Positions 229-49,862 of a DNA stretch of 64,000 bases are shown one piece after another; the stretch's first letter is position 1, and every line of letters starts with the position of its first letter. The stretch covers positions 3,288 through 67,287 of the forward strand of contig DATEIS010000441.1 of NCBI GenBank assembly GCA_035278765.1, written 5' to 3'. The position numbers were made by a program, and so were the translations under genes. Below the pieces are notes generated by a model. The model was not told the origin of the DNA. It worked only from the letters and a program-made list of their open reading frames with translations, and made no database searches. Origin of the DNA: Pyrinomonadaceae bacterium. Lineage in GTDB: Bacteria; Acidobacteriota; Blastocatellia; Pyrinomonadales; Pyrinomonadaceae.

Positions 229-244
229 AGGCACAAACTTTGCT
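229..244 (+). promoter_or_regulatory. candidate sigma-54 -24/-12 promoter (P1)
   Basis: aGGCAC-aaact-TTGCt with exact GG-N10-GC spacing. The -12 element lies 34 nt upstream of ATG 278. Confidence 0.55.
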
Positions 245-277
245 CATTACAGGACGAATGGTCTTGAAGGAGGGATT

Positions 278-511
278 ATGACAACACTTCGCTCTGCTAT
301 CGATCAAAATCAACAAACGCCCATCCCAGCGACGTCAATTATGACTGATGACAAGCAGCATGAGGTGCGCTGTGGAATGTGTGCTCGAGAGTTCTACGTT
401 GACGAAGACGCCTATCGTTTTTACAGCGAGGCGTTAATCTCCGGCTTAGACAATCCTTTCCGCTGCGAGGTATGCAGCGAGGAGTACGACGACCTCGCCT
501 ATGAAGGGTGA
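278..511 (+). CDS. small zinc-ribbon-like protein (77 aa), hypothetical
   Basis: Internal ATG of ORF 137..511 directly preceded by GGAGGG. It has two CxxC pairs (CGMC, CEVC). The 5' part of the tracked ORF overlaps promoter P1. Confidence 0.6.
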   Translation: MTTLRSAIDQNQQTPIPATSIMTDDKQHEVRCGMCAREFYVDEDAYRFYSEALISGLDNPFRCEVCSEEYDDLAYEG

Positions 512-513
512 AA

Positions 514-3237
514 TCATCGACGAACGCCGACGAGTGGTCGCGGCTCGACAGCCGTGACGCGAATGCGAGCATCCAGTATGGTTGCGCCGGCTTCGTGCAC
601 CACAAAGGGATTGCAATCGAGTTCCGCGATCTGCGGCAGATCTTCAACCATCGCACTCACGCGCAACAGTCCATCTTCCAGAGCTGTAACATCAGCAGGA
701 ACACTGCCGCGAAAGCCAGTGAGTAACGGGTAAGTCTTTAATTCGCGAATCATCTCTGAAGCATCTTCGTTTGAAAGAGGAGTGAGACGCACCGAAACAT
801 CTCGCAGTAACTCGACCTGAACGCCACCAGCGCCACAAGCCACCACCGGCCCAAACTGCGGGTCGTGTACTACACCCACCAACATCTCAACTCCGCGTTT
901 TGCCATCCGTTGGACCACAAAGCCTGACGCAGAATGTCCAAGGGAACTCAACTTATCGCTCATCTCGCGCGCGGCCGCACGCACCGCCGCTCCACCCTTG
1001 AGATGAAGCCTGACCGCTCCCGCTTCAGTTTTGTGAATGATACGAGGAGCGATCGCCTTCAAAGCAATCTCGCCGCCAATTTCATCTGCGGCCGCAGCAG
1101 CATCTTCAATAGTCTTAACAAATCTCTGTTCAATCAAGGGGAAGCCATAGCAGGCAAAAATCTTCGCCACCTCGTCAGGCATCAACCAGCCTTCTTCACG
1201 AGCCAGGGCAGCAGCAACAACGGATGCCGCCTCGTCGGCACGGATATCCTCAAATCTAGCCCGATAAGTTTCCTGCCGATCGCGCCATTGTCCATAGCGT
1301 GTGGCGCGGGCGAGAGCGATCGCTGCGGTTTCTGGAAATGAATACGAAGGTATACAAGCTTTCGTTGTACGCAATTCCTTTGGTGCTTCGTGCGCAGAGA
1401 GAAAGACACTCAGAAGCGGTTTGCTTTTGTCGATGTGCTGCACTGCTTCGACGATGGATTTAGCAACATCGTCAGCTCGCGTTACCAGCGGTGGCGTGAA
1501 AATCACTATCAGAGAATCGATGTTCTCATCTGTGCCGACAATTTCGATTGCTTGCCTGTAATGTTCGGCAGGTGCAGACGCGATCATGTCAACAGGATTT
1601 CCAACGCTGGCGCCGGCAGGAAGAAATGCGCGTAGTTTAGCCTGACTACTATCCGATAGAACCGGAACCTCGAGATCGCGCGCTTCGCACGCATCAGCAC
1701 AAAGAATTGCAGGACCGCCGGCGTTGGTGATGATTCCAACTCGCTTGCCATTTGGAAGCGGTTGATTTGCCAGCAATGAGGCAACATCAAACAACTCCGA
1801 CAACGTGTCTGTGCGGACGACTCCAGCTTGTCGAAATAACGCGTCAACTGTGACGTCAGAGGCTGCTATAAGTGCGCCGGTATGAGATGAAGTAGCCCGC
1901 GCGCCTGCGGCTGAACGCCCACTCTTCACCACGGCGATCGGTTTCTTTCGTCCGACCCGACGCGCAATCTCGGAGAACTTCTTCGGGTTTCCGAACGACT
2001 CGAGGTAGAGAAGAATTACGTCCGTATCATCATCTGATTCCCAGTATCGCAGCAGATCGTTTCCAGAAATGTCAGCTTTATTGCCAACAGAGACAAAAGT
2101 CGAGATACCGAGCCCGAGCGAGTTTGCAAACTCCATTATTGCCAATCCCAATGCGCCGCTCTGCGATGAAAAGCCAACGCGTCCACGCGGCGGAATGCCG
2201 GGCGCAAAGGTTGCATCGAGTAGCACGGCTGGATTGGTGTTGGCAATGCCCATGCAGTTTGGACCAATCAATCTCATGCCGGCTCCACGACAGACCCTCA
2301 GAAGTTCAGCTTGTCGAGCTTTTCCTTCCTTGCCAGTCTCCGAGAAGCCGGCCGAGATGACGACCAGCGCCTTTACACCTTTTCGAGCACACGCAGTCGC
2401 AACTCCAACTACGCTTGCGGCTGGAACAACGATCACGGCGAGATCGACAAGTTCCGAAATCGCTTCGATCGATGGGTAAGACTTAACACTTTCAATAACG
2501 CCCGCGGCGGGATTCACGGGGTAAACCGGACCTTTAAATCCATAGTGCAGCAGATTATGAAAGATTTCACCGCCGATGGTTCCACGCTGACGCGAAGCTC
2601 CGATCACGGCAACTGCACGTGGTTCAAAGAAAAGCTTTAACGCGTTTACGGCAGCGATCGACTCTCGGCGTTCGAACTGCTTGCGAGCTTCTTCAGTAAA
2701 AGACGTGGGTAGAACTACGTGAAGCTGTCCAGCGCTGGCGTGGACCTCGATTGGAAATCCCGATTCGCGAAACACGTGCAGCATCGCGTGATTCGCAGCA
2801 ACGACTTCAGCCTCAAAAATTCTGATCCCATTTGCTGCAGCGACCTCTGCCAGTTGGCACAGCAGGATGCTGCCGAGTCCGCGTCCCTGAAAGTCGTTTG
2901 CGATGGTAAAGGCAACCTCGGCCCGTTCCTCCGCGATGACAACATAGAATGCGTGGCCCACTACACGGTCCTCGTCGCCACTGCACGCAACCAATCCAAA
3001 GGCCTGGTCCAAGTTCGCTTCCCGGTGAGCTTCAGCAGCCAGGGCGGAGCTATTCTGAAGGCAGTAAAACCGCAGCCAACGTGATTCTTCCGACAGCGAC
3101 GTCAACAACACTCGGAGTCCAGGTTCATCAGCAGGCTGCATCACTCGAATGCGCACGGTTGAACCATCGCGCAATACAACGTCGCCGTCACGGTGGACGT
3201 CCACGCTCTTTTGAAAAGCTGCTCTATTGTCTCGCAT
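514..3237 (-). CDS. GNAT acetyltransferase fused to an ADP-forming acyl-CoA synthetase-like module (Pat/PatA-type protein acetyltransferase family)
   Basis: 907-aa ORF. N-terminal GNAT core (AFTIANDFQGRGLGSILL), then CoA-binding/succinyl-CoA-ligase-like segments (AVIGASRQRGTIGGEIF, GPNCMGI) and a C-terminal ATP-grasp region. Confidence 0.8.
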   Translation of the reverse strand: MRDNRAAFQKSVDVHRDGDVVLRDGSTVRIRVMQPADEPGLRVLLTSLSEESRWLRFYCLQNSSALAAEAHREANLDQAFGLVACSGDEDRVVGHAFYVVIAEERAEVAFTIANDFQGRGLGSILLCQLAEVAAANGIRIFEAEVVAANHAMLHVFRESGFPIEVHASAGQLHVVLPTSFTEEARKQFERRESIAAVNALKLFFEPRAVAVIGASRQRGTIGGEIFHNLLHYGFKGPVYPVNPAAGVIESVKSYPSIEAISELVDLAVIVVPAASVVGVATACARKGVKALVVISAGFSETGKEGKARQAELLRVCRGAGMRLIGPNCMGIANTNPAVLLDATFAPGIPPRGRVGFSSQSGALGLAIMEFANSLGLGISTFVSVGNKADISGNDLLRYWESDDDTDVILLYLESFGNPKKFSEIARRVGRKKPIAVVKSGRSAAGARATSSHTGALIAASDVTVDALFRQAGVVRTDTLSELFDVASLLANQPLPNGKRVGIITNAGGPAILCADACEARDLEVPVLSDSSQAKLRAFLPAGASVGNPVDMIASAPAEHYRQAIEIVGTDENIDSLIVIFTPPLVTRADDVAKSIVEAVQHIDKSKPLLSVFLSAHEAPKELRTTKACIPSYSFPETAAIALARATRYGQWRDRQETYRARFEDIRADEAASVVAAALAREEGWLMPDEVAKIFACYGFPLIEQRFVKTIEDAAAAADEIGGEIALKAIAPRIIHKTEAGAVRLHLKGGAAVRAAAREMSDKLSSLGHSASGFVVQRMAKRGVEMLVGVVHDPQFGPVVACGAGGVQVELLRDVSVRLTPLSNEDASEMIRELKTYPLLTGFRGSVPADVTALEDGLLRVSAMVEDLPQIAELDCNPFVVHEAGATILDARIRVTAVEPRPLVGVRR

Positions 3238-3261: not shown

Positions 3262-3684
3262 TTATCCCTCTGACATTCCTGTTAAGCGATCAATCCGGAT
3301 CCGAAAGACAATCACTTGAGGAGTAGAAGCATCGACTGCAATCGCAGACTCGACTGGTGTCAACATAGGAAACTTTCGGAGGAGTCTCGTGAGAATCTCT
3401 TCGCGCTCGTTTGATTTTGTGATCTCTTCAAACTTGCCAAATGCGATTGCACTCCGCCAATGCAGGTCGCTTTCGATTTCGTCCGCCTGCACGCATGCTC
3501 GAGGATTTTCCCGCAGACCCGAAATCTTCAGTCCGGGCAAAGAATGGCTATAAAGACAATCGTCTTCGAGATGGCAACTGATCGGAACGACGTAAGGCTC
3601 GCCATTAACAATGCAGCCGAGTCGTGCAACCCGCGCCGACTGAAGCACCTTGCGCGCTTCGATTTCATTGAGCATCGTCATCAT
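3262..3684 (-). CDS. pyridoxamine 5'-phosphate oxidase-like FMN-binding protein (NimA/Pyridox_ox_2-like)
   Basis: 140 aa. ARLGCIVNGEPYVVPISCHLEDD is typical of this split-barrel family. It is a paralogue of 11117..11644. Confidence 0.7.
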   Translation of the reverse strand: MMTMLNEIEARKVLQSARVARLGCIVNGEPYVVPISCHLEDDCLYSHSLPGLKISGLRENPRACVQADEIESDLHWRSAIAFGKFEEITKSNEREEILTRLLRKFPMLTPVESAIAVDASTPQVIVFRIRIDRLTGMSEG

Positions 3685-3732: not shown

Positions 3733-4680
3733 TCATTTTGAGGTCTTACGAACGACTTCAACTGAGCAATGCGCCCGCGCCGCGACCGCTGCTGAAACGC
3801 TACCGAGAATGAATCGCTCAAAGCGATTGCTGAATCCCGTGGAACCCACGAAGATGCAGTCAGCGCCCCACTCTTCCGCTGCTTTGCAGAGTTCTCGCTT
3901 AGGATCACCTTCTTTGACCACACAGGTGACCTTGATCGCAGCAGCTCGCAAAAGCTCCACCGAGCGTTTTGAGATCTCTTCAACCCACTCCTTCTCTTCT
4001 CTTCTATCCTCTTCGATCGTTTCTCCCAGCGGAGGAATCAGCTTTCCCAGAAACTCGGGCGCTAACGGATCGTCGACCAGAACCACCATGACTTCACTCT
4101 GGGGAGGCCATTTGCGCGCGGCGACGGCCCGCAATGCCAAGTCGCTCGCCGGCGAGCCATCGGTGCCGACGATAATTCGCACGGGAGAATTCGGCTCTTC
4201 GACACGTCCACGAGCGATTCTCACCGAGCAAAGGGCTTCAGTTAAAACACGCTGAGAAACACTACCAAGCACGAAGCGCCCCAGCGCTGTACGTCCGTGC
4301 GAACCCACTACAATCAAATCCGGCTTCCATTGATCCGCCTTTGAAACCAACTCCCAGGCAGGCGACCCACATGATGAATCGCCCGTCACCTTCCAGTTAG
4401 GAAAGTTGGTCTGCACTCGCTCCCGTGCGCGTTCTGCCAACGCAAGTGCTTCCTTTGCCGCAGGACAACCCTTTGCAAAATTACGTTCCAGTTCTGCCGG
4501 CGACTTCGCTTCGCGAGCCTGCTCGATGATTTCGTAAGTCGACGGCGGCGGCGGCGGAAGCCACACTTCACCAACGGAAAAGATCTCAGCTTCAGCATCA
4601 GGCGGTAGTCCCGCGTGAGTCAGATCGTCGAGCGCCGCCTCAGCGCATTCCGAGCCGTCATATCCGATTAGTATTTTCAT
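3733..4680 (-). CDS. universal stress protein, tandem UspA domains
   Basis: 315 aa with two Usp modules. Each ends in the G-x2-G-x9-GSV ATP-binding motif (GSHGRTALGRFVLGSVS; GSTGFSNRFERFILGSVS). Confidence 0.85.
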   Translation of the reverse strand: MKILIGYDGSECAEAALDDLTHAGLPPDAEAEIFSVGEVWLPPPPPSTYEIIEQAREAKSPAELERNFAKGCPAAKEALALAERARERVQTNFPNWKVTGDSSCGSPAWELVSKADQWKPDLIVVGSHGRTALGRFVLGSVSQRVLTEALCSVRIARGRVEEPNSPVRIIVGTDGSPASDLALRAVAARKWPPQSEVMVVLVDDPLAPEFLGKLIPPLGETIEEDRREEKEWVEEISKRSVELLRAAAIKVTCVVKEGDPKRELCKAAEEWGADCIFVGSTGFSNRFERFILGSVSAAVAARAHCSVEVVRKTSK

Positions 4681-4762: not shown

Positions 4763-4778
4763 GGCAAGAGTCGTACCG
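4763..4778 (-). promoter_or_regulatory. candidate sigma-54 promoter (P2) for the USP/PNPOx/GNAT-ACS operon
   Basis: The minus strand reads cGGTAC-gactc-TTGCc with exact GG-N10-GC spacing, about 84 nt upstream of ATG 4680. Confidence 0.45.
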
Positions 4779-4907
4779 GGATTTGACGGTCTCTTATGTA
4801 CTTGAAATCAGCAAACATCGTTTCGATACCTGAGAGATCTTCCGCACAATGGCGCAAGATTTCCCATAATCTCCTCTCCTGAAGGGGTCCAATTCCCAGC
4901 AATACTC

Positions 4908-4924
4908 TGGGCACGGTCCTTGCC
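4908..4924 (+). promoter_or_regulatory. candidate sigma-54 promoter (P3) for the VWA gene
   Basis: tgGGCAC-ggtcc-TTGCc, about 68 nt upstream of ATG 4991. It is divergent to P2. Confidence 0.5.
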
Positions 4925-4990: not shown

Positions 4991-5992
4991 ATGCGAAAAA
5001 CTGTCTATCTATGTCTAACAACAGTTATGCTTACTGCTACGGCACTAGCACAATCCATTTCAACCACACAGGCCCAGCAAGATGATAAAGTCGTAGTAGG
5101 CACCAATCTGGTAACGCTGAACGTGATTGTCACTGACAGTAAGGGTCGCTATGTGAAGGGTCTTTCGCGCGATCAATTCGAAGTTTACGACAACAAGATG
5201 AAGCAGCAGATCGCCCACTTCTCTACTGATGCCTCTCCGGTCTCAATAGGGATCGTTTGTAACATTCACGAAAGCGCAACTGAGAAGACGCATGCAATGC
5301 TGGCTGCCATAAAGCAGTTCACCAGCACGTTGAGAAGTGAGGACGACTTTTTCTTTCTGGCTTTCAGCGAGCACGGGAGCTTTGTAACAGATTTTGTTCC
5401 TTCATCGGATCAGGTTCTGGATCATCTTCAGTTCGTAAAACCGGGAGGTCCATCTTCGCTGTACGACTCGGTCTATCTCGCCGCGGGTCGCTTAAAAACG
5501 TCACGCAATCTCAAGAAGGCGTTACTCGTGATTTCTGATGGGCAGGACACCAGCAGCATTCATAATTACGACAAGCTGCGCAACCGCCTTAGAACACTTG
5601 ATGCACAGCTTTACGCGATTGGCATCGCCGATCCAAAGATGGACCAACTCGCCGCCTACCGCCGTTGGTTCTTCGAAGACATCACGCGACAAGGTGGCAG
5701 GCGATCGTTCTTGCTAGACTCCGATGCCGCTATTGGAAGGGCAGTTCTGGCAGAAATGTCTCGTGTAAGTGGCGGCGCAACATACTTCCCGCAAACGGAA
5801 AGCGAATCGGAACTGGCAGGTATCTGCACCCAAATAGCGTTGGAGCTGCGTCAGCAATACACGGTGGGCTTTTATTCCAAAGCGAAAGACAACAACTGGC
5901 ACAGGGTAAAAGTTCGTATCAGCAAATCGGCTGTGGGATCTCATCTTACGCTGACCTACCGAGAAGGCTATCAAATCGGCGCCGGGTATTAG
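4991..5992 (+). CDS. VWA domain-containing secreted protein (acidobacterial VWFA-related family, TIGR03436-like)
   Basis: Signal peptide, then VTLNVIVTDSKGRYVKGLSRDQFEVYDN followed by a VWA-like region. The family assignment is from memory. I chose the ATG 4991 start over TTG 4940. Confidence 0.7.
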   Translation: MRKTVYLCLTTVMLTATALAQSISTTQAQQDDKVVVGTNLVTLNVIVTDSKGRYVKGLSRDQFEVYDNKMKQQIAHFSTDASPVSIGIVCNIHESATEKTHAMLAAIKQFTSTLRSEDDFFFLAFSEHGSFVTDFVPSSDQVLDHLQFVKPGGPSSLYDSVYLAAGRLKTSRNLKKALLVISDGQDTSSIHNYDKLRNRLRTLDAQLYAIGIADPKMDQLAAYRRWFFEDITRQGGRRSFLLDSDAAIGRAVLAEMSRVSGGATYFPQTESESELAGICTQIALELRQQYTVGFYSKAKDNNWHRVKVRISKSAVGSHLTLTYREGYQIGAGY

Positions 5993-10857: not shown

Positions 10858-10872
10858 GCAACGACTGTGCCC
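10858..10872 (-). promoter_or_regulatory. candidate sigma-54 promoter (P4)
   Basis: The minus strand reads gGGCAC-agtcg-TTGCc, 28 nt upstream of ATG 10829. The same element is conserved at 44086..44101. Confidence 0.6.
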
Positions 10873-11075
10873 TCTCCTCATCAGAACAAAAGCCGAGGAA
10901 GAGGTGTAAAAGACTCAGAAATCACAGGCTTGTGGGATTGGAGAACCTGTCAGGGTTGGGGTGGTAGTCGAGAGAGCAGCGAGCTTTAACACAATGTTTG
11001 CGTGAGTTTCCCCACCGCCGAATAATTCGTTCAAGCCACGTCATGAATGACTGAAGAAAATGCCGCCGGCGTAAA

Positions 11076-11091
11076 AGGAACAACTATTGCC
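11076..11091 (+). promoter_or_regulatory. candidate sigma-54 promoter (P5)
   Basis: aGGAAC-aacta-TTGCc with exact spacing, 26 nt upstream of ATG 11117. The -24 element is weaker than in the other sites. Confidence 0.4.
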
Positions 11092-17698: not shown

Positions 17699-18408
17699 TG
17701 CACCTCCGCAATCTGACCGCTGCGCATTCGCAGCACGCGGTCAGCCATATCGGCGATTGCGGCGTTATGCGTAATGATTGCAGTCGTGGTTCCTAATTCC
17801 CGATTGATTCGTTCAATCGCCTCGAGCACCAACTTCCCGGTTGCATAGTCGAGTGCACCGGTTGGTTCATCGCAGAGCAACACCTCGGGACGTTTGGCTA
17901 CGGCACGAGCAATTGCCACTCGCTGTTGCTCACCACCAGAGAGCTGAGCAGGAAAATGATCCATTCGGTCACCGAGCCCGACGAGTCGCAGAGCCTCCTC
18001 CGGGAGCATTGGATCCTCGGCAATGTCTGTTACCAACTCGACGTTCTCGAGCGCGGTCAAGCTCGGGATCAGGTTGTAGAATTGGAAAACGAATCCGACG
18101 TGTTCCCGGCGGTACCGCGTTAACTCGGCGTCATCATCGATGCTGAGGTTGTGATCGCGGTAAAAGACTTCCCCGGTGGTTGGAACATCCAAACCACCGA
18201 GGATATTCAGCAGAGTCGACTTGCCGCTGCCAGACGCACCGAGCAATACCACCAGCTCACCTTTGTAGAGTTCCAGATCTACGGCCCTCAAAGCATGGAC
18301 CTCGACATCTCCCATGCGGTAAGCCTTCGAGAGTTCACGAGCAATGAAGACCGCTTCAGTGATTTCGGGTTGCTGTAAAAGCTGCTTCACATCTGTTTTG
18401 GGGTGCAA
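17656..18408 (-). CDS. ABC transporter ATP-binding protein (MacB/LolD-like)
   Basis: Walker [10 protein letters not shown], signature LSGGEQQRV, Walker [12 protein letters not shown]. Confidence 0.9.
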
Positions 18409-18575
18409 GAGTCATGCCCGCAAGCAGCGAACAACTTAATGAGATTTGAGGGTGATAAGTCATAGTGGAATTGAACTTACCGGTTTGGCTGCGGGCTTTC
18501 GCGCAGCAACATGGGAACTTTACGCAGCGGCCGCCCCATCGTTGCAAGATTCGGCTAAAAACCCGATGGTTAGCT

Positions 18576-18591
18576 CGGCACAAGCGTTGCG
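18576..18591 (+). promoter_or_regulatory. candidate sigma-54 promoter (P6)
   Basis: cGGCAC-aagcg-TTGCg with exact spacing, 27 nt upstream of ATG 18618. GAAGGAGG lies in between. Confidence 0.6.
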
Positions 18592-31757: not shown

Positions 31758-31772
31758 GCAAGGTACGTGCCG
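31758..31772 (-). promoter_or_regulatory. candidate sigma-54 promoter (P7) for the Rieske-to-acyl-ligase gene string
   Basis: The minus strand reads cGGCAC-gtacc-TTGCg with exact spacing, about 69 nt upstream of ATG 31688. Confidence 0.55.
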
Positions 31773-32036
31773 AGCAGTGTTCGAAGAATCTGATAGGGAA
31801 AGAGGGCTGGGAAGGAGAAGATTGGGAAAAGTTCACCAATCAAAGCGCGAAAGCCCACACTCACTTTTCCCTCAGGAACTTGCCAAGGAAAGTCTGGAAT
31901 CCCTGCCATGAGTGAGCGGCACGATCCGGTATCCACGATTAAATTCATTGTTCAGCGTGTGAGTAAAGTTCCTCAGCCGGTTGGGCCAAAGCGCGCAGTG
32001 GGGAGAGAAAATTTCGGCAATTTCGACGCTTTTGGC

Positions 32037-32052
32037 TGGCACAATCATTGCG
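32037..32052 (+). promoter_or_regulatory. candidate sigma-54 promoter (P8)
   Basis: cTGGCAC-aatca-TTGCg, a perfect core consensus, 114 nt upstream of ATG 32166. It is divergent to P7. Confidence 0.6.
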
Positions 32053-34412: not shown

Positions 34413-34657
34413 CCGTTAGTCGCTGTTCTTTTCAGCAAGGGACCTACGTACAATCTCTTCGTACTTGCCAAAGGCGCTCGCACTTCGCCGGACACAGGGT
34501 CCGGTATTGACACAACTCTCAACCCCCCAAGAAAGCCGCGATTCATAACGGGGAGCTTCACGCGCTGGAGTTGTGGACTTTCCCGCATCCGCTGCGCAAT
34601 GTTACTCAGAACCAATCACGCAAATCGATAATCTCCAGCAAATATTCCCCAGCCCTG

Positions 34658-34673
34658 TGGCATGTTCTTTGCG
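34658..34673 (+). promoter_or_regulatory. candidate sigma-54 promoter (P11)
   Basis: gTGGCAT-gttct-TTGCg with exact spacing, 40 nt upstream of ATG 34713. Confidence 0.55.
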
Positions 34674-35147: not shown

Positions 35148-35172
35148 AGTCGCCGAAAGGGGGTTAAAAAAC

Positions 35173-35772
35173 ATGGTCACCACCGCAGTAGGCTCATTGA
35201 TAGCCATAGTAGCAATCGCTGCGGCTCTCTGGTACGGCTTGCGTTGGCTTGTTCGGTCTTTCTCCAGGTATCGAGGCTCTCGAATCATTACTTGTCCGGA
35301 AACTAAAAAGCCCGCCATCGTTGAGGTTGACTCGCTACATGCGTCGTTAACCTCAACAGTGGGCCTTCCTGACATTCGACTCGAACAATGCTCCCGCTGG
35401 CCCATCAAGGAACAGTGCGGGCAAGAGTGTTTGATGGATCTCGACGTAGCGCCCGAAAGATGTCTAGTTAGCGGCGTGCTAATGCGATGGTATCGCGACA
35501 AGAATTGCGCCTATTGCAGAAAAGCTTTCCCAGAACTTCATTGGGAGGACCACCGGCCGGCTCTGCTAAGCCCTGATAGAAAGCTGGTGGCGTGGAATGA
35601 AGTTGACCTGGATCAGCTCCGGAACGTGCTTCAAGCTTATGCTCCGGTTTGTTGGAACTGCTATATCGCGCAAAAATTCCGCGTGGATCATCCCGACCTG
35701 GTCGTTTTTCGACCCTGGCGGAACGGCATCTCCGGAGACGTGGACGGCTCGTCTGCGTCACGTCATCCATAA
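35173..35772 (+). CDS. membrane-anchored Cys-rich hypothetical protein
   Basis: Internal ATG giving an N-terminal TM (VGSLIAIVAIAAALWYGL). It has 9 Cys, including CGQEC, CAYC and CWNC. Confidence 0.55.
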   Translation: MVTTAVGSLIAIVAIAAALWYGLRWLVRSFSRYRGSRIITCPETKKPAIVEVDSLHASLTSTVGLPDIRLEQCSRWPIKEQCGQECLMDLDVAPERCLVSGVLMRWYRDKNCAYCRKAFPELHWEDHRPALLSPDRKLVAWNEVDLDQLRNVLQAYAPVCWNCYIAQKFRVDHPDLVVFRPWRNGISGDVDGSSASRHP

Positions 35773-35792
35773 ACCAAAGAAGTAGAAGAGAG

Positions 35793-35840
35793 GCACAAAC
35801 GAATTGGTGGTCCGGCGTCGATTTCGTTTGTGCTTTTTTT
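35793..35840 (+). terminator. Rho-independent terminator
   Basis: 11-bp stem GCACAAACGAA / TTCGTTTGTGC followed by T7, directly after the stop at 35772. Confidence 0.7.
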
Positions 35841-35855
35841 CGCTTAGACGATTCG

Positions 35856-35871
35856 TGGACTCGGAATTGCT
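35856..35871 (+). promoter_or_regulatory. weaker sigma-54-like promoter (P12) upstream of PFOR
   Basis: gTGGACT-cggaa-TTGCt has the correct spacing and TTGC, but the -24 element matches only TGG. It lies 40 nt upstream of ATG 35911. Confidence 0.35.
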
Positions 35872-44085: not shown

Positions 44086-44101
44086 GGCAACGCCTGTGCC
44101 C
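44086..44101 (-). promoter_or_regulatory. candidate sigma-54 promoter (P9) retained upstream of the pseudogene
   Basis: The minus strand reads gGGCAC-aggcg-TTGCc, which is near-identical to P4. Confidence 0.55.
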
Positions 44102-44423
44102 GGAGAACTGATTGAGTAATTTAGAAACATATGAAAAAAGCAGGGGAAATCAGCTCATCGATTCCTAAAGTTGATGGTTCAAAGTTCGCCGAAATGCAGT
44201 CGCGAGCTTTCACGCAATATCTGCGTAAGATTGCTCAGCATGATTGCAACCAACCGTGACAAAGGACTTATGTGTAGAGAAATCACCCGTGATCAGCGGA
44301 ACGCGTTTGCGAGTTATGTGGCATTCGCGTTGCTGTTTAGTCCACGTTCGCTGAAAAAGGCACTGGCAGCGCTTGCGGTTGAGCCAACTGTCTATGCCGC
44401 GAAGAGAAATGGAAACCACAATA

Positions 44424-45043: not shown

Positions 45044-46015
45044 ATGAAACGGATTGCGGTGTTAACGAGTGGCGGTGATGCCGCGGGTATGAATGCGGCA
45101 GTCAGAGCTGTTGTCCGGACGGGCCTTGATAACGGATGGGAACTCTACGGAGTCCGCTGCGGATATGCTGGACTCATAGCCGGAGACTTTCTACCTCTAG
45201 GCGCGAGAGATGTTGGGGGAATAATTCAGCTTGGCGGCACCATGTTACGTAGCGGCCGTTGTTTGGACTTTAAAACCGAGCCAGGTCGTAATGAAGCACT
45301 TAGAAATCTCAGCGAAAAACAAATTGAGGCACTGGTCGTAATCGGCGGGGACGGTTCGCAAACCGGCGCTCATCTGCTCTCACAAGCTGGGCTTCCCGTC
45401 ATTGGAGTCGCGTCGACAATCGATAACGATCTTTATGGTTCGGAGATAACGATTGGCGTCGACACCGCTCTGAACATCGCTCTGGAGTCTATCGACCGAT
45501 TGAAGGTCACGGCATCCTCCCACAGAAGAGCGTTCCTCGTCGAAGTCATGGGACGTAATTGCGGCTACCTGGCTCTAATAGCGGGAATCACTGGTGGCGC
45601 GGAAGTCATAGTGATTCCCGAAGTTGAAACGAATCCTGAGGAGGTGGCAGCAGAGTTACGTGGTGCCTACGAGCGCGGGAAGGCGCACGCTATCGCCGTC
45701 GTTGCTGAAGGCGCCCGTTACAACGCGCGAGCGTTGTCCGTCTATTTTCAAGAGCACAAAGAACGATTGGGGTTTGAGTTACGCGTGACCACTTTGGGCC
45801 ATGTTCAGCGTGGCGGAGCACCGGGCGCCTTTGATCGCTTGCTGGCCACTCGACTCGGCGTAGCGGCAGTTCGACAACTCGAGAAGAAAGAATATGGAGT
45901 GCTCGTAGGTCTTCTAGATGGTGAACTCGCGACTACGCGTTTTGATGAAGTTATTTCTAACAAGAAACTGCTTGATTTAAAACTACTCGAAACGGCCCGG
46001 ATTCTAGCCAAATAA
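45044..46015 (+). CDS. pfkA: ATP-dependent 6-phosphofructokinase
   Basis: MKRIAVLTSGGDAAGMNAAVRAVV, GGDGS, TIDND, MGR; 323 aa. Confidence 0.9.
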   Translation: MKRIAVLTSGGDAAGMNAAVRAVVRTGLDNGWELYGVRCGYAGLIAGDFLPLGARDVGGIIQLGGTMLRSGRCLDFKTEPGRNEALRNLSEKQIEALVVIGGDGSQTGAHLLSQAGLPVIGVASTIDNDLYGSEITIGVDTALNIALESIDRLKVTASSHRRAFLVEVMGRNCGYLALIAGITGGAEVIVIPEVETNPEEVAAELRGAYERGKAHAIAVVAEGARYNARALSVYFQEHKERLGFELRVTTLGHVQRGGAPGAFDRLLATRLGVAAVRQLEKKEYGVLVGLLDGELATTRFDEVISNKKLLDLKLLETARILAK

Positions 46016-46038: not shown

Positions 46039-46685
46039 GTGAAGGTGAACACGATCATTATCAGAGTAAGTTTTGCCGCAACCTGCCTTGTCGTTTTGGC
46101 TGCGGCCACGGTTTTCTCTCAGACCCCAACTGGACCAGCAAATCGGCCGTCCTCTTAATGTTGGTTTTAGGAGACTCTGTTTGGTGGAGGCAGGGATTTA
46201 AGACGGAGCACAAATCCTGGTATCACGTGAAAGTCTGGCTGGAGAAAACAACTGGTAGAGCAGTAATCGAAAAAGTAGAGGCTCACTCAGGCGCTATCAT
46301 CGAACGAAGCTCACCTCCAGAGAAACTGACGACTCCGAACCCGGAAGTTGATGTCGCGCTACCGGCATTAAATGAGCAACTCGATAATGCAGAGCGTTTC
46401 TATTCCGACCGGTTAGAAATCGATGTAGTGCTTGTCAGTGGATGCGCCAACGATGTCGGCACGCAGAATCTTTTGAACGCGATTGCGACGAACAAATCGA
46501 CGAGATGACAAAGGCGAAGTGCGGACCACCAATGGAGAAAGCTGCGCAGAATCACGACTTCATTTCCTGCTGCCCGCGTCATCGTGACTGGTTATTATCG
46601 TTTCTTTTCAGAGAAGACTCGGAACGATTTTATTCTAAAAGCGCTGGTACGAAGATTCTTTAAGATCATCCCTGGCCTGTCTTAG
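46039..46685 (+). pseudogene. SGNH/GDSL-type hydrolase remnant with at least 3 frame changes
   Basis: The parts occupy different frames: signal peptide (46039-46158), the LVLGDSVWW block (frame of 46158), EQIDEMTKAKCGPPMEK (third frame), and ITTSFPAARVIVTGYY back in the second frame. Confidence 0.65.
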
Positions 46686-46958
46686 TGGCGCGATTCCAAT
46701 GAAGCGCTTTGCGATAACATCACGAGAAAAAGATAGACGACTCGAGAGGACTCGATCATACCTGGGAATTCGGAGGGCCACACGGGTTTTAAAAAATGTC
46801 ACCGATTCGTCACTCGACTCTCTGCAAATCGATGAAAATCGATGTCAAAAGACTGCACAAGAAATGGTCCTGTAACGGCTGCAACCTGTTGAAGAATTGC
46901 AAGTTAATGTCACTGCATGTCACCGCATGACAAACCATGCAATGGTGGTCCAAGCCCA

Positions 46959-47003
46959 TTCGCAATGCGGAGGTCAGGGGTTCGATCCGCCTCTGCTCCA
47001 CCA
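46959..47003 (+). tRNA. 3' fragment of tRNA-Ala(CGC), from anticodon loop to CCA; not a functional tRNA
   Basis: TTCGCAA-TGCGG-AGGTC-AGGGG-TTCGATC-CGCCT-CTGCTCC-A-CCA. It has U at position 70, as in tRNA-Ala. The T stem has one mismatch. There is no D arm or 5' acceptor strand upstream. Confidence 0.6.
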
Positions 47004-47019
47004 TTTGTTTTCAATCATT

Positions 47020-47053
47020 TACGGCTGCTTGCACTGGCAGCCGTATTTCATTT
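47020..47053. terminator. Rho-independent terminator, possibly bidirectional
   Basis: 9-bp stem TACGGCTGC / GCAGCCGTA with an 8-nt loop, then TTTCATTT. It sits between the tRNA fragment and the convergent gene 47091..47642. Confidence 0.6.
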
Positions 47054-47090
47054 GTGGGCACGCTCTCCGACGCTAATCGACCCAGTATTA

Positions 47091-47642
47091 TCAATCCGAC
47101 TTCTTCAGATATTGCTCCGGAATCCGATTTTTCTCGTCTTCGTTTTGCCAAAACACTGTCACAACCCACCAACGCTTCCCATCGTTTATCAATTGAAAGC
47201 TGTTGATGCCTCGTTGGATGGGTATACGGTCTTCAGCGTTATGGCGTGATTCGTAGGAGCTAAAGGCCTGCGCGATATTTCCAAACGCCTCAGTCCGCCG
47301 TGCTACTTCCTTTTCGAAAAACCCTTTTTCTTCAAGCGACGGGCCAATTCTGCCGATGTACTCCTCAACCGTTACAACACGCCAGCCATAACCGTCCTCT
47401 TCCTGCGGTCGAGTTGGAATTAGACGAGCCTCAGGAACAAACAGGGACCGGAAACGATCCCAGTTGCGCTTGGTTCCAGCCGGCCCTGAAATTGTGTCGT
47501 AAACGGCCGCGATAATGGCATCCATCGAATTTACATCCGCGGGGTTGGCTTCCGGCGGTGCGGGCGTCTTGTTACAGGCAGGGAAAATAAAAACGAAAAG
47601 AAGAGAGACAAGAAGACTTCTACGAACCATGTGCAAATTCAT
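47091..47642 (-). CDS. putative lipoprotein, hypothetical (possibly NTF2-like fold)
   Basis: 183 aa. Signal peptide ending in FPAC, then a soluble domain. The fold assignment is a guess. Confidence 0.55.
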   Translation of the reverse strand: MNLHMVRRSLLVSLLFVFIFPACNKTPAPPEANPADVNSMDAIIAAVYDTISGPAGTKRNWDRFRSLFVPEARLIPTRPQEEDGYGWRVVTVEEYIGRIGPSLEEKGFFEKEVARRTEAFGNIAQAFSSYESRHNAEDRIPIQRGINSFQLINDGKRWWVVTVFWQNEDEKNRIPEQYLKKSD

Positions 47643-47809
47643 AAGGCACCCTATGCAGATATCAATGAGGGAGGAACCGGAAGTGGTATCGGGAGTTTCT
47701 TAAACTGGGAAGTTTAAATATATACCCCTTTTGCCGCGTGTCAATGAGGCTGTAACTAGGGTAGTGGGGCCAGTTTTCAGGTGGTGGATAATGTGACTGC
47801 ACTACACAT

Positions 47810-47828
47810 CGCGCTCCGCTGGAGCGCG
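47810..47828. repeat. 8-bp stem / 3-nt loop hairpin (CGCGCTCC-GCT-GGAGCGCG) in a 0.5-kb non-coding spacer
   Basis: Read directly from the sequence. The surrounding region translates into the low-quality ORF 47662..47973, which I regard as spurious. Confidence 0.5.
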
Positions 47829-48193
47829 GTTCTATGTTGGAGGGGCGGATAGCTATAAACATCTGGCCGCGCCGCGGCCAATAATTCCACGAAACAAAAT
47901 CACTGTCTGAATCATTATTCAGTGAGACCCTGGTTCCATTAAATGAAAGCTCGCTTGAAGTTTCAGACAGCACACATGTCCTTCAAGCCGCAGCCGCACT
48001 TTCTCCGGCATTAGCCCAGAATCAGTTTTTAAATCACGAAATTCCAGGGCAAACAATTTGAACTACCCTGTGACTACCCTGGCTGGCCCACAAATATGTG
48101 CTGTTGAGCCAGGAAGAAGCCACGTGTTCCCCCCTCGTCTCGCAATAGCAGACGCCGACATCCGGCGTGGGAAGATGATTGGGTCGTTACAAG

Positions 48194-49276
48194 ATGGCTA
48201 TCGGACGGCAGGTTGATTCCGCCAAAAGGGAAAAGGCGTCCGTGCCCGATCGGGACCACAACGCAGTATTGCCCGCGCTGGAAGATGTGGGCGAGTTTGC
48301 TTTGCTCTCGATGATCGGCTCGTCGCCTATTTTTAACGAGACGGTGCGACGAATGGGCCGAATTGCGATGCGCGATGCGTCCGTATTGATTGAAGGCGAG
48401 ACAGGTTCCGGAAAGGAGGTGGCGGCGAGAGCGATTCACTACCTTGGTGCACGACGCAGCCGACCGTTCATTCCCGTGAACTGCGGCGCGATTCCCGATT
48501 CGCTAATCGAAGCCGAATTTTTCGGCCATGGCCGCGGCGCCTTTACGGATGCGCGCGAAGCGCGAGCTGGTCTCATTGCACAAGCGCACGGCGGCACCCT
48601 GTTCCTCGACGAAATCGACTCGCTAACTCCCAAGGCCCAAGTCTCATTATTACGATTCCTGCAAGATCAAAAATACAAACCCGTAGGCCGCGACGTCGAA
48701 CTGGAGGCAGACGTGCGCATCATTGCCGCTACCAACAGATCCCTCATCGCGCTCGCAAACAGCGACCGGTTCCGAACAGATCTTCTACACCGCCTCAGGA
48801 TTCTCTACTTGTACATTCCCCCGCTTCGCGAACGCGAAGGTGATGCCGAAATGCTGGCACAGCACTTTCTGCGGCATTACGTCAAAAAATACAATATGCC
48901 TCCCAAGCGATTCGCTCCGGAATCACTTCGCTGGATACGCCATCACCGATGGGAGGGAAACGTGCGCGAGTTGGACAACGCCGTCCATCGCGAAGTTGTG
49001 CTTGCGGATGGCGACGTGATCAGATTTGACGTCGTTAACAATGAGACAAAGCCCAGCCATCCAACAGTAGATTCCAGCGATGACAACTACGCTCCACTCG
49101 ATTTCCAGAGTGCCAAGGCGAAGGCAGTCCACGACTTCGAACGCGGTTACCTCACGCGAATTCTGCAAATTGCTCATGGCAATGTCAGCGCTGCTGCGCG
49201 CATCGCGGAAAAAGAACGGCGCGCGTTTGGCAAGCTCCTCAAGAAACACCAAATCAGCCGCGAGCAGTTCAAGTAA
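48194..49276 (+). CDS. sigma-54-dependent transcriptional activator (bEBP) lacking an N-terminal sensory/receiver domain
   Basis: Walker A GETGSGKE, Walker B TLFLDEID, GAFTDA (a GAFTGA variant) and a C-terminal Fis-type HTH (GNVSAAARIAEKERRAFGKLLKKH). Only about 45 residues precede the AAA+ core. Confidence 0.85.
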   Translation: MAIGRQVDSAKREKASVPDRDHNAVLPALEDVGEFALLSMIGSSPIFNETVRRMGRIAMRDASVLIEGETGSGKEVAARAIHYLGARRSRPFIPVNCGAIPDSLIEAEFFGHGRGAFTDAREARAGLIAQAHGGTLFLDEIDSLTPKAQVSLLRFLQDQKYKPVGRDVELEADVRIIAATNRSLIALANSDRFRTDLLHRLRILYLYIPPLREREGDAEMLAQHFLRHYVKKYNMPPKRFAPESLRWIRHHRWEGNVRELDNAVHREVVLADGDVIRFDVVNNETKPSHPTVDSSDDNYAPLDFQSAKAKAVHDFERGYLTRILQIAHGNVSAAARIAEKERRAFGKLLKKHQISREQFK

Positions 49277-49296
49277 ATCAAAAGAGTGGGTGACGA

Positions 49297-49662
49297 ATGA
49301 CCCACTCCCCTCCCGAATCCGATTCGCAACAAGTGAATTTCGGTTTTGGTACGTTTTGTGCTGCCTCGTTAGCACCAATCGCCGTGAGCAACGAAAACCG
49401 AATACAGATTGAACGTCTTGTTCTCCAGATCACTGAATACCTGGCTCGTAATCCAATGGCGGCTGATACGCTAGCCGGAATTCAGAGTTGGTGGTTATCA
49501 GGAGCAATGCGCAATGTTCATAGCACTCATGTTAAGACGGCGGTCCGCCTTCTCGTGCAGCGAAGAACGTTGCAGTGCAACATCCAGCCGGACGGTACGA
49601 AGACTTACTCACGTGCAAACAGTGGAATCTCCGCGCAGCGATCCGATCACGTCGGTGGGTAG
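49297..49662 (+). CDS. hypothetical 121-aa protein co-transcribed with the bEBP
   Basis: It starts 20 nt after the bEBP stop. It may be winged-helix-like (IERLVLQITEYLARNP...AVRLLVQRRTL). I recognise no family. Confidence 0.5.
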   Translation: MTHSPPESDSQQVNFGFGTFCAASLAPIAVSNENRIQIERLVLQITEYLARNPMAADTLAGIQSWWLSGAMRNVHSTHVKTAVRLLVQRRTLQCNIQPDGTKTYSRANSGISAQRSDHVGG

Positions 49663-49846
49663 ATTTCAACCCATGTATTAACTACCTGCTCCTCCTCGGA
49701 TCGCAGACGTTTCCGAAAGGGCAAGCGCTTTGAAGGTGCTAAACCGGGTCTTGCTTGACCCACTCTACTTCATCTGCCGGTCGTGCCACTCAAGCCTTTC
49801 GAACGTTTTGTTCACAAATTCTCCAACTTGATCGATGCGCGTGTAA

Positions 49847-49862
49847 TGGTACTGCGCTTGCT
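49847..49862 (+). promoter_or_regulatory. candidate sigma-54 promoter (P10) of the protease-bracketed operon
   Basis: aTGGTAC-tgcgc-TTGCt with exact spacing. The -12 element lies 22 nt upstream of ATG 49884, which implies a very short leader. Confidence 0.55.

What the first reader, a model, noticed from the sequence alone, without database searches (positions are those of the whole stretch)
229..49862. Unusually dense set of sigma-54 -24/-12 promoter matches in front of stress and anaerobic-metabolism operons
I read twelve intergenic sites with exact GG-N10-GC spacing and a TTGC -12 box. Each is correctly oriented, 22-114 nt upstream of a start codon.
- P1: 229
- P2: 4763 (minus strand)
- P3: 4908
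- P4: 10858 (minus strand)
- P5: 11076
- P6: 18576
- P7: 31758 (minus strand)
- P8: 32037
- P9: 44086 (minus strand)
- P10: 49847
- P11: 34658
- P12: 35856 (weaker)

Their core sequences are GGCAC/GGTAC/GGAAC-N5-TTGC.

The downstream genes include USPs, PNPOx-like flavoproteins, the GNAT-ACS fusion, ADH, FDH-MgtA, the Rieske-to-acyl-ligase string, the Cys-rich pair, PFOR, and a pseudogene followed by malic enzyme.

Two intragenic TGGCAC occurrences that I examined in detail lack the -12 box. This points to a large RpoN regulon for a dormancy/hypoxia-like programme. Only one bEBP is present in the window, so other activators must act from elsewhere.
Basis: partly seen in the sequence, partly recalled or inferred. 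Interest (0 to 1): 0.7.

Follow-up and report, generated by a model that had tools for sequence, protein, structure and literature searches.

The report
Sigma-54 stress regulon island in Acidobacteria
The promoter matches are real: most belong to one conserved sigma-54 regulon of a soil acidobacterium (family Pyrinomonadaceae), they share a single activator-binding site, and they precede low-oxygen and dormancy-type genes, so this is a new example of a well-known kind of gene control.

Summary
GGNAC-N5-TTGC occurs 10 times in the window against 2.6 expected. All ten hits are intergenic and point at a start codon (binomial P 1e-9).

It is a 16-bp dyad, TGCGnAAnnTTnCGCA, often in tandem 21-22 bp apart and centred 40-80 bp upstream of the -24 GG.

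A matrix for this dyad built only from other Pyrinomonadaceae genomes ranks the window's promoter regions as its top six hits. Boxes, dyad and downstream gene families are conserved across about 45 species.

The likely activator is not absent. It is an NtrC-type response regulator (REC-AAA+-HTH) encoded about 8 kb left of the window, at the end of a BON-HSP20-UbiB operon driven by the same site. Three related species pair it with a PAS-PAS histidine kinase resembling FAD redox sensors.

- P10 belongs to a separate local system: the window's sensor-less activator, GGGT-N8-ACCC dyads and a protease cluster.
- P12 is unsupported.

The closest known analogue is Myxococcus NmpR. Presence of rpoN, transcription starts and the inducing signal remain untested.

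The parts
230..243 (+). P1, sigma-54-type -24/-12 box GGCACAAACTTTGC. It precedes a 77-aa protein (278-511).
   Evidence: Homologues of this small gene sit first behind dyad plus promoter in 12 related loci.
152..167 (.). Weak upstream activator site (UAS) unit for P1, GAGGAAATCTTCCGCA, centred 70.5 bp upstream of the GG.
   Evidence: 7.4 bits, above the 99.5th percentile of background.
4764..4777 (-). P2, GGTACGACTCTTGC. It precedes tandem USP (3733-4680), PNPOx-like (3262-3684) and GNAT-ACS (514-3237).
4831..4866 (.). UAS shared by divergent P2 and P3. Two dyad units 20 bp apart: TGAGAGATCTTCCGCA and GGCGCAAGATTTCCCA.
   Evidence: 16.9 and 10.9 bits. Footprint alignment.
4910..4923 (+). P3, GGCACGGTCCTTGC. 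It precedes a 333-aa unknown protein (4991-5992) and the genes after it.
10858..10871 (-). P4, GGCACAGTCGTTGC. It precedes a 173-aa Cys-rich protein, DUF5335 and a YkuD-type protein.
10978..11014 (.). UAS shared by divergent P4 and P5. The strong unit is TGCGTGAGTTTCCCCA at 10999-11014.
   Evidence: 18.1 bits. The same element is present in L002, L021 and L036.
11077..11090 (+). P5, GGAACAACTATTGC. It precedes a PNPOx-like protein and Zn-ADH.
18405..18418 (-). It faces the ABC/FtsX/HlyD transporter genes. The leader would be only about 3 nt before the first in-frame GTG, so this site is probable rather than certain.
   Evidence: The homologous divergent pair is present in L021.
18490..18526 (.). 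UAS shared by Y and P6. Two units 21 bp apart: TGCGGGCTTTCGCGCA and ATGGGAACTTTACGCA.
18577..18590 (+). P6, GGCACAAGCGTTGC. It precedes tandem USP, an FDH-like molybdoenzyme, DUF302 and a P-type ATPase.
31758..31771 (-). P7, GGCACGTACCTTGC. It precedes a Rieske protein, an unknown protein, DUF7670, USP and an AMP-ligase/ACP/acyltransferase.
31823..31838 (.). UAS unit for P7, TGGGAAAAGTTCACCA, centred 59.5 bp from the P7 GG.
   Evidence: 14.3 bits.
31960..32019 (.). UAS for P8. The strong unit TGAGTAAAGTTCCTCA is at 31960, centred 70.5 bp from the P8 GG. Weaker units lie at 31982 and 32004.
   Evidence: 19.3 bits, the top hit in the window.
32038..32051 (+). P8, GGCACAATCATTGC. It precedes a 139-aa unknown protein, a split Cys/Met PLP enzyme and an FNR-like reductase.
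34572..34608 (.). UAS for P11. Two units 21 bp apart: TGTGGACTTTCCCGCA and TGCGCAATGTTACTCA.
   Evidence: 8.1 and 17.2 bits.
34659..34672 (+). P11, GGCATGTTCTTTGC. It precedes two unknown proteins, then PFOR and a DHOD-like protein.
   Evidence: Homologues of its first gene sit behind dyad plus promoter in 12 related loci, and PFOR lies within 2.5 kb in 7.
35857..35870 (+). P12, GGACTCGGAATTGC. Probably not a sigma-54 promoter.
   Evidence: No UAS. Conserved only in L012. It follows a terminator-like hairpin.
44087..44100 (-). P9, GGCACAGGCGTTGC. It precedes a 63-aa protein, malic enzyme and an ATP-grasp protein.
44201..44237 (.). UAS shared by P9 and the extra promoter X. The strong unit is TGCGTAAGATTGCTCA at 44222.
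   Evidence: 17.5 bits.
44320..44333 (+). It precedes small secreted proteins and possibly PFK (45044-46015).
48179..49276 (+). The window's own enhancer-binding protein (bEBP). It has only AAA+ and HTH domains, no sensor domain, and a GAFTDA loop. It belongs to the separate P10 system.
   Evidence: Orthologues align from residue 2-4 onward.
49288..49303 (.). GGGT-N8-ACCC dyad 1 of the second system, upstream of the box at 49348.
49348..49361 (+). Additional promoter-like box GGTACGTTTTGTGC, before a 92-aa gene (49384-49662).
   Evidence: Orthologous boxes GGTACGCGTCTTGC (L059:1684) and GGTACGCATCTTGC (L061:5875).
49657..49761 (.). Two GGGT-N8-ACCC dyads (49657-49672 and 49746-49761) upstream of P10.
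   Evidence: Conserved in L058 and L061.
49848..49861 (+). P10, GGTACTGCGCTTGC. It precedes an S8 protease (49887-51206) and a run of unknown genes. It lacks the TGCG..CGCA dyad.

Best explanation
The window comes from a Pyrinomonadaceae (Acidobacteriota) genome and carries most of a 'regulon island'. The island holds 12-13 sigma-54-dependent promoters.

**Layout.** Most promoters sit in divergent pairs. Each pair, or single promoter, is served by an enhancer. The enhancer consists of one or two 16-bp dyads, TGCGnAAnnTTnCGCA, spaced 21-22 bp apart. The dyads are centred 40-80 bp upstream of the -24 GG.

**Proposed mechanism** (inferred by analogy with NtrC and NmpR):
1. One NtrC-family response regulator (REC-AAA+-HTH_8) is phosphorylated by a cytoplasmic PAS-PAS histidine kinase. 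Its first PAS domain resembles the FAD redox sensors MmoS, NifL and Aer.
2. The phosphorylated regulator oligomerises on the tandem dyads.
3. It uses ATP to open the sigma-54 holoenzyme complexes on both sides of the enhancer.

The regulator gene lies about 8 kb left of the window, at the end of a BON-HSP20-UbiB operon driven by the same enhancer. The circuit is therefore positively autoregulated.

**Output genes in the window**
- universal stress proteins (USPs) and PNPOx-like flavoproteins;
- ADP-forming acetyl-CoA synthetase, Zn-ADH, PFOR, malic enzyme;
- an FDH-like enzyme and a P-type ATPase.

Just left of the window the same enhancer also drives an HSP20 gene and a PEP-utilising enzyme of the PPDK/PEP-synthase family. 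In related species the output also includes quinol NO reductase, a HemN-like radical-SAM enzyme and CBS-pair proteins. This is a low-oxygen, redox-stress persistence programme.

**P10 is separate.** P10 and a further box at 49348 form an independent local sigma-54 circuit. It is run by the window's sensor-less bEBP through GGGT-N8-ACCC dyads.

**Shown versus inferred.** Shown: the motif statistics, cross-species conservation, the positional coupling of dyad and box, and the gene content. Inferred: which protein binds the dyad, and what the signal is.
For: **Promoters**
- 10 of 10 strict and 14 of 15 relaxed boxes are intergenic and correctly oriented.
- Starting only from strong dyads and the minimal GG-N10-GC pattern, the consensus GGCA[CT]R-N4-TTGC emerges in relatives.

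**Enhancer**
- Motif discovery on 31 non-window divergent-pair spacers gave the 16-bp dyad.
- That non-window matrix ranks six sites in the window's promoter regions as its top six hits. At 14 bits or more there are 7 observed against 0.67 in shuffles.
- In 790 kb of Pyrinomonadaceae DNA, 95 of 112 strong dyads have a box within 400 bp pointing away. The modal distance is 40-80 bp.
- Second units are enriched at +/-21-22 bp.
- In the P2/P3 alignment of seven species, only the two boxes and the dyad are conserved.

**Taxon and negative control**
- 53 loci are 70-91% identical at protein level, nearly all Pyrinomonadaceae or Blastocatellia.
- The actinobacterial locus L043 and the Gemmatimonadota locus L053, the two non-acidobacterial loci scanned, have no boxes upstream of the ACS gene.

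**Regulon conservation**
- The same gene families sit behind dyad plus box in other species.
- Relatives add qNOR, a HemN-like enzyme and CBS-pair proteins.

**Activator**
- A conserved REC-AAA+-HTH_8 protein is found in 13 loci, 67-92% identical to each other.
- It is present 8 kb left of the window.
- It lies downstream of a dyad plus box on the same strand in 10 of 14 loci. In L028, L047 and L050 the site is directly upstream.

**Kinase**
- A PAS-PAS-HisKA-HATPase kinase follows the activator in L028, L047 and L050.
- Its best solved-structure matches are 3EWK (E 1.4e-53), the Aer PAS domain and the NifL PAS domain.

**P10 system**
- Synteny and the GGGT-N8-ACCC dyads are conserved.

**Analogue**
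- Myxococcus NmpR is experimentally shown to be a hypoxia-responsive, autoregulated, sigma-54-dependent response regulator. It binds GCGCA-N5-TGCGC sites, and its regulon includes a USP, a CBS protein, a P-type ATPase and hemN (PMC11841059).
Against: - There are no transcription-start or expression data.
- rpoN itself was not seen in the window or in any fetched locus. Its presence is only implied by three kinds of Sigma54_activat proteins.
- The assignment of the dyad to the REC-type activator rests on co-location and apparent autoregulation, not on binding data. A second REC-bEBP group also occurs near some islands.
- In the public contig that extends left of the window, the activator gene carries a 1-nt deletion in the Walker A codons. 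It could be a pseudogene or an assembly error.
- The sigma-54 contact loop reads GAFTDA, not the canonical GAFTGA.
- The kinase was found next to the activator only in three more distant species, not in this genome.
- The P1 enhancer is weak (7.4 bits).
- Promoter Y would give an almost leaderless GTG-start mRNA.
- HSP20, BON and USP proteins fit general dormancy or desiccation as well as hypoxia.
Confidence: 0.72

Rival explanations
1. One reading: the promoters are sigma-54-dependent but are served by several different activators encoded elsewhere in the genome. Each operon would respond to its own signal.
For: The window holds only one bEBP, and it does not match the common dyad. Two enhancer types do exist in the window. 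Several bEBP groups occur in related loci.
Against: Eleven to twelve promoters share one dyad at one preferred distance. This arrangement is conserved across about 45 species. Only P10 and the box at 49348 have a different site.
Confidence: 0.1
2. The layout is as described, but the dyad is bound by a different enhancer-binding protein. Candidates are the second REC-type group found in L005, L015 and L039, or one encoded elsewhere. The REC-type protein next to the island would be merely a regulon member.
For: The second group lies within a few kb of islands in three loci. No binding data exist. The group-A copy in this genome's public contig is frameshifted.
Against: Group A is far more often linked to the islands (13 loci). 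In three species it sits directly behind its own dyad plus box, together with a kinase. The second group has no dyad plus box directly upstream.
Confidence: 0.15
3. The circuit is the same but the signal is not oxygen or redox. It could be a general stationary-phase, starvation, desiccation or nitrosative-stress dormancy programme.
For: HSP20, BON, USPs, a DksA-type protein and qNOR are regulon members. By general knowledge, Pyrinomonadaceae are typical of dry soils. The kinase cofactor is only inferred from sequence similarity.
Against: Fermentative and anaerobic enzymes are members: PFOR, ADP-forming ACS, ADH, FDH-like, malic enzyme and a HemN-like enzyme. The kinase PAS domain resembles MmoS, NifL and Aer. 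The NmpR precedent also points to oxygen (PMC11841059).
Confidence: 0.3
4. The matches are chance or non-promoter repeats with no role in transcription.
For: Each box specifies only about 9-10 bases. GG-N10-GC alone is at chance frequency.
Against: The boxes show a very strong intergenic bias (P 1e-9 to 1e-12). They are correctly oriented and conserved at orthologous positions amid diverged spacers. They are coupled to a dyad at a fixed distance, and bEBP genes lie in the island.
Confidence: 0.02

Closest known systems
NmpRSTU / NmpR regulon of Myxococcus xanthus (McAllister et al. 2025, PMC11841059)
   Same: - The activator is an NtrC-like response regulator acting on sigma-54 promoters through paired upstream sites. 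The half-sites have the same core (GCGCA/TGCGC there, TGCG/CGCA here).
- The activator operon is positively autoregulated. In L004 it starts with a CBS-domain protein, as it does in Myxococcus.
- The regulon contains a USP, a P-type ATPase and, in relatives, a hemN-like gene.
- It belongs to a soil bacterium and has a low-oxygen theme.
   Different: - The conserved unit here is TGCG-N8-CGCA (16 bp), with units 21-22 bp apart. NmpR binds GCGCA-N5-TGCGC sites spaced 14-15 bp apart.
- The associated kinase is a PAS-PAS type resembling FAD sensors, not the globin-coupled NmpU with its NmpS/T phosphorelay.
- The regulon is much larger and is clustered in an island of divergent pairs. It is dominated by fermentative and anaerobic enzymes rather than cbb3 oxidase.
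- The phylum is different. Orthology of the regulators could not be tested.
DosR/DevR dormancy regulon of Mycobacterium tuberculosis
   Same: By general knowledge of that regulon, the gene content overlaps strikingly. Both include tandem USPs, an alpha-crystallin-type HSP20, PNPOx-like flavoproteins, a P-type ATPase (CtpF-like), CBS-pair proteins (Hrp1-like) and a phosphofructokinase. Both are controlled by a two-component system with a redox or gas sensor kinase.
   Different: DosR is a NarL/LuxR-type regulator acting with sigma-70-type holoenzyme on GGGAC-N4-GTCCC boxes. No such box occurs in the window. Here the control is by sigma-54 plus a AAA+ activator. This is functional convergence, not membership.
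Classical NtrC-type enhancers, and regulon islands with divergent sigma-54 promoters (glnAp2; Klebsiella nif cluster; E. coli hyc/hyp-FhlA)
   Same: Dimer-sized dyads have outer TGC/GCA triplets about one helical turn apart. Tandem sites nucleate the oligomer. One enhancer region serves divergent promoters. Many sigma-54 promoters cluster within a few tens of kb. All of this is from general knowledge.
   Different: The dyad sequence, regulator lineage and physiological output differ. The regulator falls below every named NCBIfam equivalog cut-off, for example AtoC 439 against 714 and NtrC 398 against 559.
PspF/HrpS-type sensor-less enhancer-binding proteins (relevant to the P10 system only)
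   Same: The window's bEBP has only the AAA+ and HTH domains and sits next to its target promoters.
   Different: It falls below the PspF family cut-offs. Its targets are an S8 protease and unknown proteins, not psp or hrp genes. No partner anti-activator has been identified.

Membership tests
Sigma-54 (RpoN)-dependent promoter | GG at -24 and GC at -12 with an exact 10-nt spacer, and the extended consensus GGCAC-N5-TTGC | tested here: met
   There are 10 strict and 3 relaxed matches. Consensus recovered in relatives by anchoring on the dyad.
Sigma-54 (RpoN)-dependent promoter | Located upstream of genes, correctly oriented, and not at chance frequency | tested here: met
   10 of 10 and 14 of 15 boxes are intergenic, with P 1e-9 to 1e-12. 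Boxes are conserved at orthologous positions.
Sigma-54 (RpoN)-dependent promoter | An upstream activator sequence for an enhancer-binding protein within about 200 bp | tested here: met
   The dyad lies 40-80 bp upstream. P12 fails this test.
Sigma-54 (RpoN)-dependent promoter | The genome encodes rpoN | not testable with these tools
   No RpoN-box ORF was found in the window or in the 100 loci. The whole genome is not available. Presence is only implied by the bEBP genes.
Sigma-54 (RpoN)-dependent promoter | Transcription start about 11-13 nt downstream of the -12 GC, with dependence on rpoN | not testable with these tools
   This needs 5'-end mapping or a mutant.
NtrC-family response-regulator bEBP regulon | Activator with REC + sigma-54-interaction AAA+ + Fis-type HTH domains | tested here: met
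   Pfam hits for Response_reg, Sigma54_activat, AAA_lid_14 and HTH_8. An orthologue lies 8 kb left of the window.
NtrC-family response-regulator bEBP regulon | GAFTGA sigma-54 contact loop | tested here: inconclusive
   The loop reads GAFTDA in all group-A proteins and in the window's bEBP. It reads GAFTGA in the second group.
NtrC-family response-regulator bEBP regulon | Tandem dyad binding sites | tested here: met
   A 16-bp dyad, with second units enriched at +/-21-22 bp.
NtrC-family response-regulator bEBP regulon | Cognate histidine kinase | tested here: inconclusive
   An adjacent PAS-PAS-HisKA-HATPase kinase is present in L028, L047 and L050. None was found next to the activator in this genome's contig.
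NmpRSTU system (Myxococcus) | NmpR binding site GCGCA-N5-TGCGC, with S1-S2 spacing of 14-15 bp | tested here: not met
   The half-site core is the same. However, the conserved unit is TGCG-N8-CGCA, and the gap between units varies from N4 to N6. Compared with PMC11841059.
NmpRSTU system (Myxococcus) | Globin-coupled sensor kinase NmpU with the NmpS/T phosphorelay | tested here: not met
   The linked kinase is a PAS-PAS type. No globin domain was seen.
NmpRSTU system (Myxococcus) | Orthology of the response regulator to NmpR | not testable with these tools
The regulator falls below all named NCBIfam equivalog cut-offs.
DosR/DevR dormancy regulon | NarL-type regulator and GGGAC-N4-GTCCC boxes | tested here: not met
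   No box in the window even with one mismatch allowed. The regulator here is a bEBP.

The most novel reading that the evidence does not exclude
A single NtrC-type activator and one 16-bp enhancer code may govern a family-wide, sigma-54-dependent persistence or low-oxygen regulon in Pyrinomonadaceae. This would be functionally convergent with mycobacterial DosR and myxobacterial NmpR, but built on sigma-54 and packed into an island of bidirectional enhancers. If so, the dormancy and hypoxia response of a dominant, rarely cultured soil lineage could be read directly from genomes and metagenomes.
Probability: 0.5. Interest if true: 0.6.

Novelty: new member of a known kind. Interest (0 to 1): 0.5.

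Why it matters
Acidobacteria of this family are abundant in soils but hard to grow, and almost nothing is known about how they regulate survival. This analysis yields a cis-regulatory code (box plus dyad), a candidate activator and a candidate kinase. It also lists conserved target families, several of which have no known function. Examples are the 77-aa P1 protein and the first genes behind P11 and P8.

With this code, regulon membership can be predicted in any Pyrinomonadaceae genome or metagenome, and the prediction is directly testable. It also gives a third, independently built example of a USP/HSP20/PNPOx/P-type-ATPase 'dormancy' gene set under two-component control. The other two are DosR and NmpR.

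Tried and rejected
- A first 34-nt one-site-per-sequence EM on window regions only misaligned the P1 and P2/P3 regions and then timed out. A matrix built from window sites was circular. Both were replaced by training on non-window loci.
- Reading the enhancer as an NmpR-type CGCA-N5-TGCG site was rejected as the primary unit. That gap varies (N4-N6), whereas the TGCG-N8-CGCA unit is constant and carries the information.
- GGGT-N10-ACCC was the wrong spacing for the P10 dyads. N8 is correct.
- A dyad-like hit at 63917 (12.5 bits) has no box next to it. A hit at 11764 is inside the ADH gene. Both are treated as chance.
- A regex search for histidine kinases found none in the window.
- An RpoN-box search found none in any held sequence.
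- A DosR-box search found none.
- Rfam and tRNA scans of the window found nothing.
- Literature searches for an acidobacterial sigma-54 stress regulon found nothing specific.
- I ran no further search on the activator. The database returns no organism names, so orthology to NmpR could not have been settled that way.

Full report
**Observation**

The twelve sites are present within 1-2 nt of the stated positions. The strict pattern GGNAC-N5-TTGC gives ten hits against 2.64 expected, and no shuffle of 100 reaches ten. These ten are exactly P1-P10.

I built a gene map from Pfam-supported ORFs and public gene calls. On that map 12.9% of the window is intergenic. All ten hits are intergenic and face a start codon within 200 nt (binomial P = 1.2e-9).

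Allowing GGNA[CT] gives 15 hits, 14 of them intergenic (P = 4.5e-12). One is 44320+ (X), divergent from P9. The other is 18418- (Y), divergent from P6.

GG-N10-GC alone and TGGCAC alone are at chance frequency and show no intergenic bias.

**Origin of the window**

The GNAT-ACS protein finds 53 loci, nearly all from Pyrinomonadaceae or Blastocatellia metagenome-assembled genomes, at 70-91% identity. The window is therefore from a Pyrinomonadaceae acidobacterium. Its exact genes occur on two contigs of ENA assembly ERZ27257065.

**Conservation of the boxes**

Most related loci have a divergent pair of -24/-12 boxes upstream of the ACS operon. The pair sits at -500, -1500 or -2000, depending on whether USP and PNPOx genes intervene. 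The actinobacterial locus L043 and the Gemmatimonadota locus L053, the two non-acidobacterial loci scanned, have none.

In a seven-species alignment of the P2/P3 spacer, only three blocks are conserved. They are the two boxes and one central element.

**A shared enhancer**

By eye, and then by EM on 31 divergent-pair spacers from genomes other than the window, the central element is a 16-bp dyad, TGCGnAAnnTTnCGCA.

- A matrix built only from the non-window sites ranks 31960, 10999, 44222, 34593, 4831 and 31823 as the top six positions of the 64-kb window. All six lie in promoter spacers.
- At 14 bits or more there are seven hits against 0.67 in shuffles.
- Across 790 kb of Pyrinomonadaceae sequence, 95 of 112 strong dyads have a box within 400 bp pointing away. 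The distance is concentrated at 40-80 bp from dyad centre to GG.
- A second, weaker unit is enriched at +/-21-22 bp.
- Starting from strong dyads and demanding only GG-N10-GC nearby recovers GGCA[CT]R-N4-TTGC. This is independent support that these are sigma-54 elements. The lineage prefers C rather than T before the GG.

P1 has only a weak unit (7.4 bits), but it sits at the modal distance. P10 and P12 have none.

**One activator, encoded just outside the window**

Thirteen related loci carry a conserved REC-AAA+-HTH_8 protein within a few kb of the ACS operon. These proteins are 67-92% identical to each other.

The contig that extends about 9.5 kb beyond the left end of the window shows the following:
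- the P1 gene, VIT1 and a PEP-utilising enzyme of the PPDK/PEP-synthase family on one strand;
- BON, HSP20, UbiB and this activator on the other strand;
- between them another divergent box pair with the best dyad seen (20.9 bits).

In 10 of 14 loci the activator lies downstream, on the same strand, of a dyad plus box. In L028, L047 and L050 the site is immediately upstream. In those three species a cytoplasmic PAS-PAS-HisKA-HATPase kinase follows the activator.

The kinase's best solved relatives are 3EWK (E 1.4e-53), the Aer PAS domain and the NifL PAS domain. To my knowledge 3EWK is the FAD-binding tandem PAS of MmoS. The PAS-A sequence lacks the LOV cysteine.

That this protein binds the dyad, and that the signal is redox or oxygen, are inferences.

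**Regulon content**

The same families head operons behind dyad plus box in other species:

| Family | Related loci |
|---|---|
| First gene of P11 | 12 |
| P1 gene | 12 |
| USPs | 9 + 4 + 3 |
| Rieske protein | 7 |
| PNPOx-like | 6 + 4 |
| P8 gene | 5 |
| ACS | 5 |

Members seen only in relatives include quinol NO reductase, a HemN-like radical-SAM enzyme and CBS-pair proteins. They also include a PLP-dependent enzyme and a DksA-type zinc-finger protein.

The window and its left flank add PFOR, ADP-forming ACS, Zn-ADH, malic enzyme and a PEP-utilising enzyme of the PPDK/PEP-synthase family. They also add an FDH-like enzyme, a P-type ATPase and HSP20. Together the set reads as a low-oxygen persistence programme.

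**P10 and P12**

The window's bEBP (48179-49276) has no sensor domain, and its orthologues align from residue 2-4. The gene order bEBP, 92-aa gene, S8 protease, unknown genes is conserved in L056-L061.

The dyad GGGT-N8-ACCC occurs three times in the window, all in this locus (49288, 49657, 49746). It occurs at the same places in the orthologous loci.

A further box, GGTACGTTTTGTGC at 49348, precedes the 92-aa gene. Its orthologues have canonical TTGC. P10 therefore belongs to a second, local circuit.

P12 follows a terminator-like hairpin, is conserved in only one of nine relatives, and has no dyad. I treat it as unsupported.

**Comparison with known systems**

The closest described system is NmpRSTU of Myxococcus xanthus (PMC11841059). 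It is a hypoxia-responsive, autoregulated NtrC-like regulator acting on sigma-54 promoters. It binds paired GCGCA-N5-TGCGC sites. Its operon starts with a CBS protein, and its regulon includes a USP, a P-type ATPase, cbb3 oxidase and hemN.

The present system works like it but fails two defining features. The site architecture differs, and the kinase is not globin-coupled. Orthology could not be tested.

The gene content resembles the mycobacterial DosR regulon, but the regulator class and box differ. The activator is below all named NCBIfam equivalog cut-offs. I found no paper describing such a regulon in Acidobacteria.

**Caveats**

- No rpoN was seen in any held sequence.
- There are no start-site or expression data.
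- The sigma-54 contact loop is GAFTDA rather than GAFTGA.
- The activator copy in the public contig has a 1-nt deletion in its Walker A codons.
- Promoter Y would leave almost no leader.

**Verdict**

This is a new, well-defined member of the NtrC/sigma-54 regulon class, of moderate interest.

Noticed in passing
window 48179-61295: A second sigma-54 circuit. A sensor-less bEBP and a 92-aa protein are followed by P10. P10 precedes an S8 protease and four large proteins with no family match. After those come a TIG-like protein, a protein with two C70 (AvrRpt2-like) peptidase domains, and an 8xMP membrane protein. GC content is 0.56-0.60 against about 0.52 elsewhere. The function is unknown and it may be an acquired island.
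   Followed up: partly
L055 20136-21568 (about 8 kb left of the window start): In ENA contig k141_93840, the candidate master activator is split into REC and AAA+-HTH ORFs. The cause is a 1-nt deletion in a G-run inside the Walker A codons (GESGTGK). This is either an assembly error or a genuine pseudogene in this population.
   Followed up: partly
window 32625-33522: The Cys/Met-metabolism PLP enzyme downstream of P8 is split into two overlapping ORFs matching the N- and C-terminal parts of the family. This is a probable frameshift or pseudogene.
   Followed up: no
window 35790-35850: A GC-rich hairpin plus T-run (CACAAACGAAAT...ATTTCGTTTGTG TTTTTTT) lies between the second P11 gene and PFOR. 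Similar hairpins stand before PFOR in L003, L007, L012, L016, L017 and L030. It may be a terminator or attenuator separating PFOR from the P11 transcript.
   Followed up: partly
window 278-511; 34770-35772; 32166-32585: Small proteins with no known family are the most consistently conserved first genes of the regulon across species. They are the 77-aa P1 product and the two proteins behind P11 and P8.
   Followed up: no
L003 4515-4717, L011 410-698, L030 4951-5158: In some relatives the spacer between divergent promoters also holds a long inverted repeat made of CTCTGCG/CGCAGAG units. It looks like an inserted repeat element.
   Followed up: no
window 46509-48178 and 61296-62992: These are long stretches without convincing ORFs. 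GC drops to about 0.47 at 60-64 kb. No tRNA or Rfam family was found there.
   Followed up: partly
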